Below, piece by piece: positions 39,869 to 45,386 of a stretch of 64,000 nucleotides of DNA; within the stretch, counting starts at the first letter, position 1, and each line of letters opens with the position of its first letter. The translations under genes and the position numbers were made by a program. Location of the stretch: assembly GCF_009914755.1 (NCBI RefSeq), contig NC_060926.1. One strand, given 5' to 3'. This DNA comes from the human T2T-CHM13v2.0 reference genome, Homo sapiens. The notes under the pieces are model-generated. The model saw nothing but the letters and a program-made list of their open reading frames with translations. It did no database searches and was not told the DNA's origin.

Positions 39869-39928
39869 CTGTTGCAGGTGCTCTGTGCTGCATTCATCCT
39901 TGTTCACATCAAGATTCACAAAGCAGAC
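39869..39928 (-). CDS. SPHKAP: SPHKAP coding exon (exon 4), VCFVNLDVNKDECSTEHLQQ
   Basis: 60 nt, cag|GTC...CAG|gtaac, phase 0-0; peptide recognised as the SPHKAP N-terminal region and joins in frame with the next exon. Confidence 0.93.
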
Positions 39929-40070
39929 CTGGGAAAAGAGGGCAAAAATAGTACGTTAAAGTCAAAAACCTGACTGTCTTTTTAGAAGAAAGAAAGCAGG
40001 AATCAGTTGGGGCAAATGCTTTGGGAGTCTTCCACATCTTAGACAGTTTGGCATAGAAATAGTCATTTCA

Positions 40071-40378
40071 GGGCGGGCGCAGTGGCTTATGGTTGTAATC
40101 CCAGCACTTTAGGAGGCCAAGGCGGGCAGATCACGAGGTCAGGAGATCGAGACCATCCTGGCCAACATGGTGAAACACTGTCTCTACTAAAAATACAAAA
40201 ATTAGCTGGGTGTGTTGGCACGCGCCTGTAGTCCCAGCTACTCGGGAGGCTGAGGCAGGAGAATTGCTTGAACCCAGGAGGCGGAGGTTGCAGTGAGCCG
40301 AGGTCATGCCCACTCCAGCCTGGCGACAGTGTGAGACTGCATCTGAAAAAAAAAAAAAAAAAGAAAAAAGAAAAAAAG
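40071..40378 (+). mobile_element. Alu (Sc-like)
   Basis: Dimeric Alu; TSD AGAAATAGT(C/A)ATTTCA. Confidence 0.95.
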
Positions 40379-40865
40379 AAATAGTAATTTCACTTTTGAG
40401 CCTCCAAATAGCTCTCCAACACCCTGCTCAGCTTCCCACTGGTCACAACAAATGCCCGCTTCCTTTCATGGCCCAACATACTAAAAAAGTCTGCTTGTAT
40501 TAGAGCCAATAGAACAGTTACAACAAAATCTTCAAGTTTATAAGGTGTTATCAGATCTCATGAAATAGGAAAAATAACTTTTTATGCTCTAAGCCTCTGT
40601 TTGTAATTGCAATAAATACTTTTCTCTATTTTCTCCTTTCCTCTTCTCATTTTTGCTCCTTTTCTCTACCCACTTTTAATGTAGTGCATAATAAGCCAGG
40701 ACTCCTCTTTGCCACATTGTTTTAGTTCATTTTACTTTATTTAACCTTGTTATACAATTTGCCTCTTTGTTAGCTATGTTGGATAAATGTCTGAATGGGT
40801 TAGTCTAAAAACAATAGCCATAATATTAAACAATAAATCTGAACAACAGTGAAACATTGTTATAA

Positions 40866-41222
40866 AGTCATATGTTGCATAATGAACAACATTTTGGTCA
40901 AGAACTGATCACATATACAACAGTGGTCCTTTAAGATTATAATACCGTATTTTTACTGTTTTTACCTTTTCTATGTTTACATATGTTTAGATATACAAAT
41001 ACTTAATGATTGTGTTTCAGTTGCCTGTGGTATTTAGGACAGAAACATGCTGTACAGGTTTATAGCCTAGGAGTAATAGGTTATACCATATAACCTACAG
41101 GTACAGTAAGCTATGTCATCTAGACTTGTCTAAGTACAGTCTATGATGTTCAAACAGTGACAAAATCACCTAATCATGCATTTCTCATAACATGTCCCTA
41201 ACAGTAAGTGACTCATGCCTGT
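40866..41222 (+). mobile_element. Tigger3/Golem-derived DNA transposon
   Basis: 'aagattataataccgtatttttactg...catgctgtacaggtttatagcctaggag...tgcatttctca'. Confidence 0.75.
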
Positions 41223-42618
41223 AATTTAAATCCCAAATATACCACATAGTTAGAAAACTACTATGAGCATTCAGATGGGGTTGGAGAAAAGAAAGTTAAA
41301 GTTTTCAAAGAGGTTAGCTATGTTTTTGAAAGATAAAAAGACTTTTGTTGGGTAGGGAATGGGTGGGGACCATCACTAGTGGGTTGGACAGACAGCATGA
41401 TTAATACTTTGAGGTGAGAAAGTGTAACGCTGTCAAGCCACAGGGAATAAGAGAATCTGACTGCAGGCAGGCCTAGAGGAAGGGAAGTGTTGGTAATTAG
41501 GTCTAGTTAGGTTTGGGCTAAATGAGAAAATGCAAATGAGGTTCTCTAATACTTTGCTAGCAATCATCCAAAGGTTTTTATTTCTAACTAGTTGATTTGA
41601 TGTTACAAAACGGAGAACATTAATTACCTGGAATTTAGTTAGACATTTGAACTTTCAGATGCCTGCAAATATATGGGGCTTTCTGATCTTAGTTACTTTT
41701 TGGGATCATGGTTTCTTAGTCCATCTTTTTTCTTTTTGAGGTTAAAAAAATAATGGAAAGGTTTTGAGAAAGATCTTAAAAACTGAAATAGAAGTGTAAA
41801 GATCACTACTGCTTTAGTCCCAAAGAATAGGAGATTTCTTCAAGTTTCATGGACTCACAAGATCCTTGAAGTGCAACCCTAGGATGCACCATCTGCCTGT
41901 TAAGAATAACTTGATGGGCATTAGGGGGAAGAAAGGGCATGAAAGGACCCACACTCCCATTCAGAAGTTCTTTTTGCTCTGGGTTAATAAGATGGAAAAA
42001 TAGGAAGAAATTGGCATGAGTCCCTTTGCAGACAGTGCAAATGGAAGCATAAATAGAAGATGGAGCTCAGAAGCAGTTCATGATCTAGGGAAGTTTGATA
42101 ATATTCATATAATAATTGAAACTTTGCCCTTGGAAAACTAGTTCAATATCCATCAGTCCTCAGGGACTTTTAATAACATGCAGCTGGCACTGGTGGTATT
42201 GAATTGATGAGAAGATTTTCCATTCACCTTAAAGAAAGGCCCATTACCTTGCTCCTGGGCATGACAAAGCTTTTATTATCATGCATCACAGTGGCAGAGG
42301 GCAAAGCAGAGATCAGAGAGCAAAGAAAGGCCTCTATAGTAGCAATTTGTCTGCCCTCCAACATTTTCTTTAGTTTTCTGAGGATGAACTCTCTTTTCAC
42401 CCATTTTAGGCTACTATATGAAACTCTACCTACACCTGGAGGACACTCTCCACATTTGCTAGCTGAACCAAGATAAAAACAAAGCAAGACACAAACCAAC
42501 TTCTTGCTTATACTTCTCATGCACATCTTGCAATATCTTCATAGTAGGGGATGATCCAGGCTTCTTAAGGCCTGATGTGCATGCAATGTGGGGAGGCCTT
42601 CTTTAAGAAATGGAATAA

Positions 42619-42955
42619 CGGCCGCGTACGGTGGCTCACGCCTGTAATCCCAGCACTTTGGGAGGCCAAGGTGGGCGGATCAAGAGGTCAAGAGATTGAG
42701 ACTCTCCTGGCCAACGTGGTGAAACCCCGTCTCTACTAAAAATACAAAAAACAGCCGGGTGTGGTGGCGCACACCTGTATTCCCAGCTACTCAGGAGGCT
42801 GAGGCAGGAGAATCGCTTGAAGCTGGGAGGCAGAGGTTGCAGTGAGCCAAGATAACGCCACTGCACTCCAGCCTGGCAACAGAGCAAGATACCATCTCAA
42901 AAAAAAAAAAAAAAAAACAACAAAAAACAAAAAACAAAAAAATAAAAAAATTAAA
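42619..42955 (+). mobile_element. Alu (Sc-like)
   Basis: 'ggatcaagaggtcaagagattgagac'; long A tail. Confidence 0.95.
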
Positions 42956-43395
42956 ATATTCTAAATTAGGTGTGAGACTGAATATTTACTTCTTTAGAAG
43001 GAAAAAAGGAATTACAAGAAAGCTAGAACTTAAAAGGGCTGGCAAATACTAAAAACATAAAAACTGCCAGGAATATGATATCTAATTGACTGCCCAATGC
43101 ACCTCCATAATATTTTTTTTTTTTTACATTTTTGACTGACTACTCTTTGGTCACCTCTTCATGTGAAAGCAATATTGAAATATTGTCTTCTCTAGAGAAA
43201 CTAGAAAAATAAGCTAGTTTTCCTCTGACATGGTTGACTGATTTTTTAACTTCCAGATTTTTATTGAAAATATGTTTTACGAGGGTGGAGCCAAGATGGC
43301 CGAATAGGAACAGCTCTGGTCTACAGCTCCCAGTGTGAGCGATGCAGAAGATGGGTGATTTCTGCATTTCTATCTGAGGTACCAGGCTCATCTCA

Positions 43396-43719
43396 CTAGG
43401 GAGTGCCAGAGAGTGGATGCAGCGCACCGTGCATGAGCCAAAGGAGGGCGAGGTGTTGCCTCACTTGGGAAGAGCAAGGGGTCAGGGAGTTCCCTTTCCT
43501 AGTCAAAGAAAGGGGTGACAGACGGCACCTGGAAAATTGGGTCACTCCCACCCTAATACTGTGCTTTTCCAACGGGCTTAAAAAACAGCACACCAGGAGA
43601 TTATATCCCGCACCTGGCTCAGAGGGTCCTACGCCCATGGAGTCTCCCTGATTGCTAGCACAGCAGTCTGAGATCAAACTGCAAGGCAGCAGCGAGGCTG
43701 GGGGAGGGGTGTTGGCCAT
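43396..43719 (-). CDS. L1 ORF0 homologue, C-terminally extended (107 aa)
   Basis: MANTPPPASLLPCSLISDCCASNQGDSMGVGPSEPG... resembles primate L1 ORF0; strong Kozak context gcaATGG; expression unknown. Confidence 0.5.
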   Translation of the reverse strand: MANTPPPASLLPCSLISDCCASNQGDSMGVGPSEPGAGYNLLVCCFLSPLEKHSIRVGVTQFSRCRLSPLSLTRKGNSLTPCSSQVRQHLALLWLMHGALHPLSGTP

Positions 43720-45386
43720 TGCCCAGGCTTGATTAGGCAAACAAAAATGCCAGGAAGCTCGATCTGGGTGGAGCCCACCACAGCTCAAGGAGGCCTGCCT
43801 GCCTCTGTAGGCTCCACCTCTGGGGGCAGGGCACAGACAAACAAAAAGACAGCAGTAACCTCTGCAGACTTAAATGTCCCTGTCTGACAGCTTTGAAGAG
43901 AGTAGTGGTTCTCCCAGCATGCAGCTGGAGATCTGAGAATGGGCAGACTGCCTCCTTAAGCGGGTCCTTGACCCCCGAGCAGCCTAACTCGGAGGCACCC
44001 CCCAGTAGGAGCAGACTGACACCTCACACGGCCAGATACTCCTCTGAGACAAAACTTCCAGAAGAACGATCAGGCAGCAGCATTTGCAGTTCACCAAGAT
44101 CTGCTGTTCTACAGCCACCGCTGTTCTGTAGCCACCGCTGCTGATACCAAGACAAACATGGTCTGGAATGGACCTCTAGCAAACTCCAACAGACCTGCAG
44201 CTGAGGGTCCTGTCTGCTAGAAGGAAAACTAACGAACAGAAAGGACATCCACACCAAAAACCCTTCTGTACATCACCATTATCAAAGACCAAAAGTAGAT
44301 AAAGCCACAAAGATGGGGAAAAAACAGCAGAAAAACTGGAAACTCTAAAAAGCAGAGCGCCTCTCCTCCTCCAAAGGAACGCAGCTCCTCACCAGCAACG
44401 GAACAAAGCTGGACGGAGAATGACTTTGATGAGCTGAGAGAAGAAGTCTTCAGACGATCAAACTACTCCGAACTACAGGAGGAAATTCAAACCAATGGCA
44501 AAGAAGTTAAAAACTTTGAAAAAAAATTAGATGAATGGATAACTAGAATAACCAACGCAGAGAAGTCCTTAAAGGAGCTGATGGAGCTGAAAGCCAAGGC
44601 TCGAGAACTACATGAAGGATACAGAAGCCTAAGGAGCTGATGCGATCAACTGGAAGAAAGGGTATCATTGATGGAAGATGAAATGAATGAAATGAAGCGA
44701 GAAGGGAAGATTAGAGAAAAAAGAATTAAAAAAACGAACAAAGCCTCCAAGAAATATGGCATTATGTGAAAAGACCAAATCTACGTCTGATTGCTGTACC
44801 TGAAACTGACGGGGAGAATGGAACCAAGTTGGAAAACACTCTGCAGGATGTTATCCAGGAGAACTTCCCCAATCTAGCAAGGCAGGCAAACATTCAGATC
44901 CAGGAAATACAGAGAACGCCACAAAGATACTCCTCGAGAAGAGCAACTCCAAGATAATTGTCAGATTCACCAAAGTTGAAATGAAGGAAAAAATGTTAAG
45001 GGCAGCCAGAGAGAAAGGTCGGGTTACCCACAAAGGGAAGCCCATCAGACTAACAGCTGATCTCTTGGCAGAAACTCTACAAGCCAGAAAAGAGTAGGGA
45101 CCAATATTCAACATTCTTAAAGAAAAGAATTTTCAACCCAGAATTTCATATCCAGCCAAACTAAGCTTCATAAGTGAAGGAGAAATAAAATACTTTACAG
45201 ACAAGCAAATACTGAGAGATTTTGTCACCACCAGGCCTGCCCTACAAGAGCTCCTGAAGGAAGCACTAAACATGGAAAGGAACAACCGGTACCTGCCACT
45301 CCAAAAACATGCCAAAATGTAAAGACCATCGAGGCTAGGAAGAAAACTGCATCAACTAACGAGCAAAATAACCAGCTAACATCATG

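What the first reader, a model, noticed from the sequence alone, without database searches (positions are those of the whole stretch)
39869..43790. L1 antisense promoter and extended ORF0 positioned to splice in frame into SPHKAP exon 4
Seen: the full-length L1 5'UTR lies 3.35 kb upstream of exon 4, and its antisense direction is SPHKAP-sense. ORF0 (ATG at 43719, gcaATGG) stays open for 107 codons, past the roughly 71-aa L1HS length. It therefore reaches a donor-like CAA|GTGAGG at 43465/43464 after exactly 85 codons (phase 0), matching the phase-0 acceptors of exons 4, 5 and 6. The donor CAG|GTGCGG (43614, phase 1) fits exon 7, and CAG|GTGCCG (43529, phase 2) fits exon 8. Known: L1 antisense promoters make chimeric transcripts and ORF0-exon fusion proteins. 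Inference: an ape- or primate-restricted ORF0-SPHKAP isoform could swap the native N-terminus and bypass the native promoter when the L1 is hypomethylated.
Basis: partly seen in the sequence, partly recalled or inferred. Interest (0 to 1): 0.75.

Follow-up and report, generated by a model that had tools for sequence, protein, structure and literature searches.

The report
Ordinary intronic L1PA4, hypothetical SPHKAP fusion
The sequence features are real, but they are standard equipment of hundreds of old L1 repeats, and no evidence was found that this copy makes a hybrid SPHKAP protein.

Summary
A full-length L1 on the + strand, starting at 43281, lies 3,352 bp upstream of SPHKAP exon 4, with its antisense strand in the gene's sense. 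ORF0 (ATG 43719) runs 107 codons. GT sites after 43614, 43529 and 43465 are in phases 1, 2 and 0. Exons 4-6, 7 and 8 start in phases 0, 1 and 2.

None of this is specific to the locus. The element is listed as a 4.7%-diverged L1PA4. The long ORF0 is the normal form in older L1PA copies. A 31-mer typical of it occurs 822 times in this genome, against 680 for the short-form motif. In 26 of 49 other copies the ORF is open in phase 0 up to the same GTGAGG site. Donors in all three phases mean that some exon always "fits".

The two donors that match those inside the 71-aa ORF0 are out of frame with exon 4; a stop follows 6 or 4 codons after the junction. This copy has fewer CpGs than any compared copy.

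SPHKAP and this L1 are absent from three sizeable lists of L1-chimeric or L1-linked transcripts that I could search. Two small supplement files also had no hit.

Verdict: a latent, generic promoter-and-exon cassette; the fusion isoform is possible on paper only.

The parts
43281..49441 (+). Full-length, coding-dead L1PA4 in SPHKAP intron 3, antisense to the gene
   Evidence: The 5' end reads gagggtggagccaagatggccgaatagg, and the flanks on both sides share an AAAATATnTTTT-like match. ORF1 is in pieces of 38 aa or less; ORF2 is in pieces of 108, 680 and 322 aa. Pinson 2022 Table S1 has the row chr2:228895610-228901759 + L1PA4, milliDiv 47, rep 1-6152. That place fits within about 16 bp when mapped from the hg19 SPHKAP coordinates seen and the hub's gene span.
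43396..43719 (-). Long-form ORF0: 107 codons plus stop, start context GCAATGG
   Evidence: The start is homologous to that of the 71-aa ORF0 in younger copies. No Pfam family matches (0 families).
43720..43919 (-). Stretch upstream of the ORF0 ATG with no other ATG; the antisense promoter start zone is expected here
   Evidence: ATGs between 44000 and 43717 lie only at 43920 and 43719. The antisense promoter position (first 600 bp of the 5'UTR, +450 region) is taken from Criscione 2016 and Pinson 2022 passages. Initiation at this copy was not tested.
43608..43616 (-). Donor-like CAG|GTGCGG, phase 1; equivalent to the first donor inside the short ORF0
   Evidence: 7 of 9 consensus matches, U1 duplex -7.2. 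Joined to exon 4 it gives a stop at codon 42.
43546..43554 (-).
   Evidence: 6 of 9 matches, U1 duplex -8.2. Joined to exon 4 it stays open to the end of exon 11. The GT is kept in 20 of 20 sampled copies.
43523..43531 (-). Donor-like CAG|GTGCCG, phase 2. Younger copies have one base fewer here, which sets the short 71-aa frame
   Evidence: 6 of 9 matches. Joined to exon 4 it gives a stop at codon 68. The one-base difference is seen in 9 of 12 short-type copies.
43459..43467 (-). Donor-like CAA|GTGAGG, phase 0 after 85 codons
   Evidence: 7 of 9 matches, U1 duplex -5.1. Joined to exon 4 it stays open to the end of exon 11. GTGAG is kept in 29 of 29 nearest copies and the GT in 19 of 20 sampled copies. 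The preceding codon is mostly CGA elsewhere and is TGA in some copies.
43260..43265 (-). AATAAA just past the L1 5' end, on the SPHKAP-sense strand
   Evidence: A possible end point for unspliced antisense transcripts (inference).
42624..42970 (-). Alu that is antisense in the SPHKAP pre-mRNA, with an acceptor-like site at 42822 and a donor-like site after 42775
   Evidence: The 48-nt interval has an in-frame TAG when read in phase 0 (read by eye).
40070..40391 (-). Second Alu, antisense in the pre-mRNA, with T17-CAG at 40342
   Evidence: 17 of 17 pyrimidines. No GT site at 7 of 9 or better lies between it and exon 4, and none with the looser U1 filter.
39869..39928 (-). SPHKAP exon 4 (60 nt, phase 0 at both ends) with a strong acceptor
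   Evidence: 16 of 17 pyrimidines.

Best explanation
The interval holds a fixed, full-length L1PA4 that no longer codes for its own proteins. It sits in SPHKAP intron 3, antisense to the gene. The antisense strand of its 5'UTR carries what most copies of the older L1PA subfamilies carry: the canonical ORF0 start in a strong Kozak context, a long-form ORF0 (107 codons here), and four GT sites in phases 1, 0, 2, 0.

The short 71-aa ORF0 of younger L1s differs by one base fewer at the second GT site. That shifts the frame into a TGA. So the 'extension' is the older state of the family, not a change at this locus.

The cassette is a latent alternative promoter plus first exon. Its in-frame fit to exon 4 follows automatically from the family design.

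Most likely (inferred):
- The copy is methylated and silent in most tissues and plays no part in normal SPHKAP expression.
- If its antisense promoter fires, the main products would be short unspliced transcripts running into the flank, with an AATAAA at 43265.
- Alternatively, RNAs spliced from the two classical donors would hit stops just inside exon 4 and would then be expected to be targets of nonsense-mediated decay.
- An ORF0(85 or 56 aa)-SPHKAP protein needs one of the two phase-0 sites and is at best a rare by-product.
For: - Coordinates and frames are verified.
- Family identity comes from Pinson 2022 Table S1 (mapped).
- 5,378 first-look candidates for the 395-nt query exist in the same genome; the best 39 other scored matches are 89-92% identical.
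- ORF open in phase 0 up to the GTGAGG site: 15 of 29 nearest copies and 11 of 20 copies taken as every fifth listed hit of the long-form motif.
- Motif counts: long form 822, short form 680 exact hits.
- Of 12 copies carrying the published ORF0 reverse-primer motif, 8 give a 71-aa ORF and 1 a 70-aa ORF; in all of them the GTGAGG site lies after the stop.
- CpG decay: 11 CpGs in 43281-43800, against a median of 20 (range 13-30) in 29 near copies and 30.5 (26-36) in 12 younger copies; observed/expected 0.26 over 910 nt.
- Out-of-frame outcome for 43614 and 43529.
- Literature (passages read): ORF0 has two donor sites, about 3,000 loci and 57 known exon fusions. About 17% of L1PA1-7 5'UTR copies gave antisense transcripts in brain and glioma, and only 2.9% of those were spliced at the 5' end.
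- Negative look-ups for SPHKAP or this L1.
Against: - No expression data could be examined directly, so silence is inferred, not shown.
- The exon 4 acceptor is strong (16 of 17 pyrimidines). The phase-0 GTGAGG site matches the donor consensus as well as some annotated SPHKAP donors do. Here its -2 base is A, closer to consensus than the CGA of most copies.
- The ORF0 ATG would be the first AUG for starts below 43920.
- Saied 2012 (passages) reports that decitabine restores SPHKAP RNA in two AML lines whose native promoter is methylated. The promoter of origin was not resolved, so an L1 start is not excluded.
- The negative lists cover brain, glioma, ESTs, DNMT1-null neural progenitors and activated 293T only.
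- The near copies were chosen by similarity, which may favour less decayed copies in the CpG comparison.
Confidence: 0.78

Rival explanations
1. When this L1PA4 loses methylation or KZFP/HUSH repression, its antisense promoter initiates upstream of 43719. The transcript splices from the phase-0 site after 43465 (or 43552) to exon 4. A hominoid-restricted ORF0-SPHKAP protein lacking the exon 1-3 N-terminus is then made.
For: - The join is in frame and open to the end of exon 11.
- Strong Kozak context and first AUG.
- Strong exon 4 acceptor.
- ORF0-exon fusions exist at other loci (passages).
- L1PA2-8 antisense promoters are active.
- Decitabine restores SPHKAP RNA in AML lines.
Against: - No transcript, EST or chimera is listed for this L1 or gene in the searchable sets.
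- Only 2.9% of L1 antisense transcripts were spliced at the 5' end in Pinson 2022.
- The two donors equivalent to those of the short ORF0 are out of frame.
- The copy is CpG-poor, with 11 CpGs in 520 nt.
- The arrangement is shared by about half of sampled sister copies, so it gives no sign of selection.
Confidence: 0.08
2. The antisense promoter is used, but the output is non-coding or truncating. It would be either unspliced transcripts ending in the flank, or RNAs spliced from 43614 or 43529 (or started at the +200 promoter region, downstream of the ORF0 ATG). These encode only 41- or 67-residue peptides, are degraded, or allow translation from an internal SPHKAP AUG. In that case the L1 acts as a weak alternative or interfering promoter rather than a source of a fusion protein.
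For: - Stops at codons 42 and 68.
- AATAAA at 43265.
- Most L1 antisense transcripts are unspliced, and some start in a +200 region (passages).
- About 17% of comparable L1s gave such transcripts in brain and glioma.
Against: This L1 is not among the 1,677 chimeras of Pinson 2022 Table S2. No other data were available.
Confidence: 0.12
3. The ORF and the GT sites are chance features of a decayed repeat, with no relation to ORF0.
For: Of the 194 GT sites in the 3.8-kb stretch, 11 reach 7 of 9 consensus matches, so donor-like strings are common.
Against: The ATG, its context, the reading frame up to the second GT site and all four GT sites align with those of other L1 copies, including copies with the published 71-aa ORF0 ending.
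Confidence: 0.02

Closest known systems
L1 ORF0 and ORF0-exon fusion proteins (Denli et al. 2015; the paper was not held, known here only through passages in Criscione 2016, Hancks & Kazazian 2016 and Linker et al. 2017)
   Same: Same strand and place in the L1 5'UTR. Homologous ATG in GCAATGG. The first 63 codons are in the same frame as the 71-aa form. The two internal GT sites are equivalent.
   Different: The ORF here has 107 codons, because the copy has one base more at the second GT site than the short-form copies. A third and a fourth GT site (both phase 0) therefore lie inside the ORF. No evidence of transcription, splicing or translation exists for this locus.
L1 antisense-promoter chimeric transcripts (Criscione 2016; Pinson 2022), of which L1-MET is the example I recall
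   Same: A full-length L1PA1-7 5'UTR inside an intron, with the antisense promoter pointing along the host gene and a strong exon acceptor 3.35 kb downstream.
   Different: This locus is absent from the 988-transcript EST set and from the 1,677-chimera brain and glioma set. L1-MET is recalled from memory and was not checked here.
LINC01876, an L1PA2 antisense-promoter-driven lncRNA (Garza et al. 2023, passages)
   Same: A hominoid L1 antisense promoter co-opted as a transcript start, where the state of the ORF0 start codon matters.
   Different: There, expression and function were shown experimentally and the ORF0 start is lost in humans. Here the start is intact and nothing is shown.

Membership tests
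L1PA4 (primate LINE-1), full length | Complete 5'UTR start, ORF1 and ORF2 homology, A-rich 3' end, flanking target-site duplication | tested here: met
   5' end and flank match; ORF2-like pieces of 108, 680 and 322 aa and ORF1 fragments.
L1PA4 (primate LINE-1), full length | Assignment to the subfamily by RepeatMasker | tested here: met
   Pinson 2022 Table S1 row: L1PA4, 4.7% divergence, rep 1-6152. The identity of that row with this element rests on my coordinate mapping (plus the hub table), which fits within about 16 bp and matches in strand and length. I ran no classifier.
L1 ORF0 | ORF on the antisense strand of the 5'UTR, starting at the conserved ATG in a strong Kozak context | tested here: met
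   GCAATGG at 43719. In the 61 other copies examined, 60 keep the ATG at that position (one reads GTG) and 53 have the identical 7-mer GCAATGG.
L1 ORF0 | Length of about 70-71 aa, ending at the TGA of the published reverse primer | tested here: not met
   107 codons. The primer's TGA is read in another frame here. This is the long form, shared with older L1PA copies.
L1 ORF0 | Two internal splice donor sites | tested here: met
   Sequence only: CAG|GTGCGG and CAG|GTGCCG at the places of the two GT sites in 71-aa copies. That these are Denli's SD1 and SD2 is my inference.
L1 ORF0 | The peptide is translated | not testable with these tools
   No ribosome profiling or proteomics data at hand.
L1 antisense-promoter chimeric transcript | [quoted passage not shown] | not testable with these tools
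   No CAGE or RNA data. This L1 is not in Pinson 2022 Table S2.
L1 antisense-promoter chimeric transcript | RNA continuous with, or spliced to, host-gene sequence | not testable with these tools
   SPHKAP is absent from the Criscione 2016 supplements and the Jonsson 2019 supplements.
ORF0-exon fusion protein | Donor phase equals the phase of the acceptor exon, and the joined frame is open | tested here: met
   Met for 43465 and 43552 with exon 4; not met for 43614 and 43529, which give stops at codons 42 and 68.

The most novel reading that the evidence does not exclude
This hominoid L1PA4 supplies, in some demethylated or germline-like cell state, a real first exon. It would encode 85 (or 56) residues of long-form ORF0 spliced in frame to SPHKAP exon 4, giving an ape-specific SPHKAP isoform with a new N-terminus.

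More generally, the long-form ORF0 of older L1PA copies occurs at 822 or more exact-motif loci here, and about half of the sampled copies are open. It offers donors in all three phases, so it could tag any downstream exon in frame. The 71-aa, two-donor description in the passages I could read does not mention this property.
Probability: 0.07. Interest if true: 0.5.

Novelty: new member of a known kind. Interest (0 to 1): 0.15.

Why it matters
If the isoform existed, it would be one more case of an L1 antisense promoter and ORF0 rewiring a gene. Here the gene is a PKA-anchoring protein that, as I recall, is expressed in heart and brain, and the change would be ape-specific.

As it stands, the locus mainly shows that in-frame ORF0-exon geometry is the default for older L1PA copies lying antisense in introns. 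Geometry alone should therefore not be scored as evidence. The long-form versus short-form ORF0 difference (one base at the second GT site) and the all-three-phases donor set may help anyone screening RNA-seq or proteomics data for ORF0 fusions from L1PA4-and-older elements.

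Tried and rejected
**Papers and supplements**
- Denli 2015, Speek 2001 and Matlik 2006 are not held. The published positions of SD1 and SD2 and the list of 57 fusions could therefore not be checked.
- Earlier findings of this scan were not open.
- The supplement look-ups in Honda 2020 and the 2025 Genome Biology paper covered only one small file each (14,746 and 4,398 characters) and are weak negatives.
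- The Playfoot 2021 supplements gave only a gene-annotation row for SPHKAP. File 1 was not searched, file 2 was cut when stored, and only 2 of 3 occurrences were shown.
- Library searches: SPHKAP + LINE-1 + 'antisense promoter' gave 0 papers. SPHKAP + L1PA gave 0. SPHKAP + LINE-1 gave 1 paper, Saied 2012, which does not concern an L1 start. These searches cover main texts only.

**Analyses**
- Pfam found nothing in the 107-aa ORF.
- The first donor scoring script used one position too few; the corrected numbers are.
- Competing acceptors: the Alu site at 40342 has no donor-like site after it, and native intron 3 already splices past both Alus. I therefore did not treat Alu exonisation as a strong objection.
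- I built no consensus of L1 copies and did not classify the element myself.
- Orthology in other primates could not be tested; no primate genomes are held.

Full report
**1. What is in the sequence**

On the minus strand (SPHKAP sense) an ORF runs from the ATG at 43719 to the stop at 43396-43398. It has 107 codons and starts in the context GCAATGG.

- CAG|GTGCGG, last exon base 43614 (106 nt, phase 1)
- CAG|GTGCCG, last exon base 43529 (191 nt, phase 2)
- CAA|GTGAGG, last exon base 43465 (255 nt = 85 codons, phase 0)

Exon 4 (39928->39869) reads VCFVNLDVNKDECSTEHLQQ in frame 1, behind the acceptor tttttgccctcttttcccag. A script joined the eight annotated exons in the window. The 4,713-nt CDS has no stop, and the start phases are 0, 0, 0, 1, 2, 2, 2, 1 for exons 4-11.

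**2. The repeat**

- The + strand from 43281 begins gagggtggagccaagatggccgaatagg. The element ends in a decayed A-rich tail near 49441. Both flanks carry an AAAATATnTTTT-like string, which I read as the target-site duplication.
- ORF1 survives only as pieces of 38 aa or less. ORF2 is in pieces of 108, 680 and 322 aa. The element is full length but cannot code for its own proteins.
- Pinson et al. 2022 (PMC9396940) Table S1, a RepeatMasker-based list of L1s with an antisense promoter, has the row chr2:228895610-228901759, +, L1PA4, 4.7% divergence, consensus positions 1-6152.
- I tied that row to this element as follows. A supplement of Playfoot 2021 gives hg19 SPHKAP as chr2:228844666-229046361. 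The hub table puts the gene's 3' end at window -7647. Window 43281 therefore maps to about 228,895,594, which is 16 bp from the row's start, and strand and length agree.
- Garza et al. 2023 call L1PA2-L1PA4 hominoid-specific (passage). I did not test orthology.

**3. The 'extended' ORF0 is the family norm**

*Nearest copies.* The window's own genome could be searched. The 395-nt ORF0 region has 5,378 first-look candidates; 40 were scored, and the best others are 89-92% identical. I aligned the 29 nearest other copies pairwise to the window.
- The phases 1, 2, 0 of the three sites are kept in 27 of 29.
- The ORF from the homologous ATG is open in phase 0 up to the GTGAGG site in 15 of 29, with lengths of 102-238 codons.
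- The other 14 have earlier stops at codons 15, 19, 24, 60 or 84.

*Why L1HS is quoted at 71 aa.* I took the ORF0 reverse primer printed in Honda et al. 2020. Its 22-nt target occurs 856 times in the genome. Of the 12 fetched copies:
- 8 give a 71-aa ORF and 1 a 70-aa ORF ending ...RCVRHPFL; 3 stop earlier.
- 9 of 12 have one base fewer than this copy at the second GT site (GTGCGT against GTGCCG). That shifts the frame into the TGA.
- In all 12 the GTGAGG site lies after the stop.

*Motif counts.* Exact counts are 822 for the long-form 31-mer and 680 for the short-form 30-mer, with 0 for both reversed controls.

*A sample not chosen by similarity.* I took every fifth of the 100 listed long-form hits, 20 copies in all.
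- 11 of 20 are open from the ATG to the GTGAGG site in phase 0.
- 16 of 20 keep the phases 1, 0, 2, 0.

Because the long form offers donors in all three phases, some downstream exon will always fit, so the fit carries no information.

**4. Would splicing give a protein?**

- Joining after 43465 or 43552 to exon 4 stays open to the end of exon 11.
- Joining after 43614 or 43529 gives stops at codons 42 and 68, that is 6 and 4 codons past the junction. These two are the sites that lie inside the 71-aa ORF0. I infer they are the 'two splice donor sites' of the literature (passages). The original paper was not held.
- By the general rule for nonsense-mediated decay, such early stops upstream of many junctions would be expected to mark the RNA for decay (established knowledge, not tested).
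- The exon 7 and exon 8 fits need three or four exons to be skipped.

Site strength, by a simple count against MAG|GTRAGT (consensus recalled):

| Sites | Matches of 9 |
|---|---|
| Candidates 43614, 43552, 43529, 43465 | 7, 6, 6, 7 |
| Eight annotated SPHKAP donors | 6-8 |

Of the 194 GT sites in 43718-39936, 11 reach 7 or more.

The exon 4 acceptor has 16 of 17 pyrimidines. One Alu site at 40342 has 17 of 17, but no donor-like site follows it. AATAAA lies at 43265-43260, just past the L1 end. No ATG lies between 43920 and 43719.

**5. State of the promoter**

- The 520 nt from 43281 to 43800 hold 11 CpGs. The 29 near copies have a median of 20 (range 13-30), and the 12 younger copies a median of 30.5 (26-36).
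- Over 910 nt the observed/expected CpG ratio is 0.26.
- This fits long-term germline methylation, and it leaves few CpGs for a methylation switch. The near copies were picked by similarity, which may bias them towards less decay.

**6. Literature**

- Criscione 2016 (passages and 10 supplement files): 988 antisense-promoter transcripts, no SPHKAP.
- Jonsson 2019 (5 supplement files): no SPHKAP.
- Pinson 2022: about 17% of L1PA1-7 copies with a 5'UTR gave antisense transcripts in 3 brains and 8 gliomas. Promoter activity followed host-locus activity. Only 2.9% of the transcripts (44 of 1,509) were spliced at the 5' end (passages). Table S2 lists gene names and L1 coordinates for 1,677 chimeras. 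It has neither SPHKAP nor this L1's coordinates.
- Honda 2020 and a 2025 Genome Biology paper: one small supplement file each, no hit.
- Library searches found no paper linking SPHKAP with an L1 promoter.
- Saied 2012 (passages) shows the native SPHKAP promoter methylated in AML and SPHKAP RNA restored by decitabine. The start site was not mapped, so this neither supports nor excludes an L1 start.
- Not seen: Denli 2015 and its fusion list; Garza 2023 table S3; supplements of Adami 2025.

**7. Verdict**

The fusion isoform is geometrically possible through two non-classical phase-0 sites. There is no evidence that it exists, and several indications point to it being rare at best. I put about 0.78 on a latent cassette with no dedicated role, 0.12 on non-coding or truncating antisense output, and 0.08 on a real in-frame isoform.

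Noticed in passing
window 43523-43531, compared with loci L032-L042: Long-form and short-form ORF0 differ by a single base at the second GT site (GTGCCG against GTGCGT). Exact-motif counts in this genome are 822 for the long form and 680 for the short form. In the long form, four GT sites in phases 1, 0, 2, 0 lie inside the ORF. Whether this is described in Denli 2015 could not be checked.
   Followed up: partly
window 43465-43467 and the same codon in loci L019, L029, L046, L052, L058: The codon just before the GTGAGG site is CGA in most copies. It has decayed to CAA here, which is closer to the donor consensus. It has decayed to TGA (a stop exactly at the site) in L017, L019, L029, L046, L052 and L058. 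This shows CpG decay acting in both directions on the same codon.
   Followed up: partly
window 41965-42584: A RefSeq 'enhancer' feature lies in unique sequence between the L1 5' end and exon 4, directly after an Alu (42624-42970). An unspliced L1 antisense transcript would run through it. Not examined.
   Followed up: no
window 39366-39504 and 54393-54479 (+ strand): The predicted lncRNA LOC105373918 runs on the L1-sense strand and holds the whole L1 in its intron. One of its exons lies 365 bp from SPHKAP exon 4, on the opposite strand.
   Followed up: no
window 42775-42822: In the first antisense Alu, an acceptor-like site (13 of 17 pyrimidines) and a CAG|GTGTGC donor-like site bound a 48-nt interval. 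That interval would carry an in-frame TAG if it were included after a phase-0 donor.
   Followed up: partly
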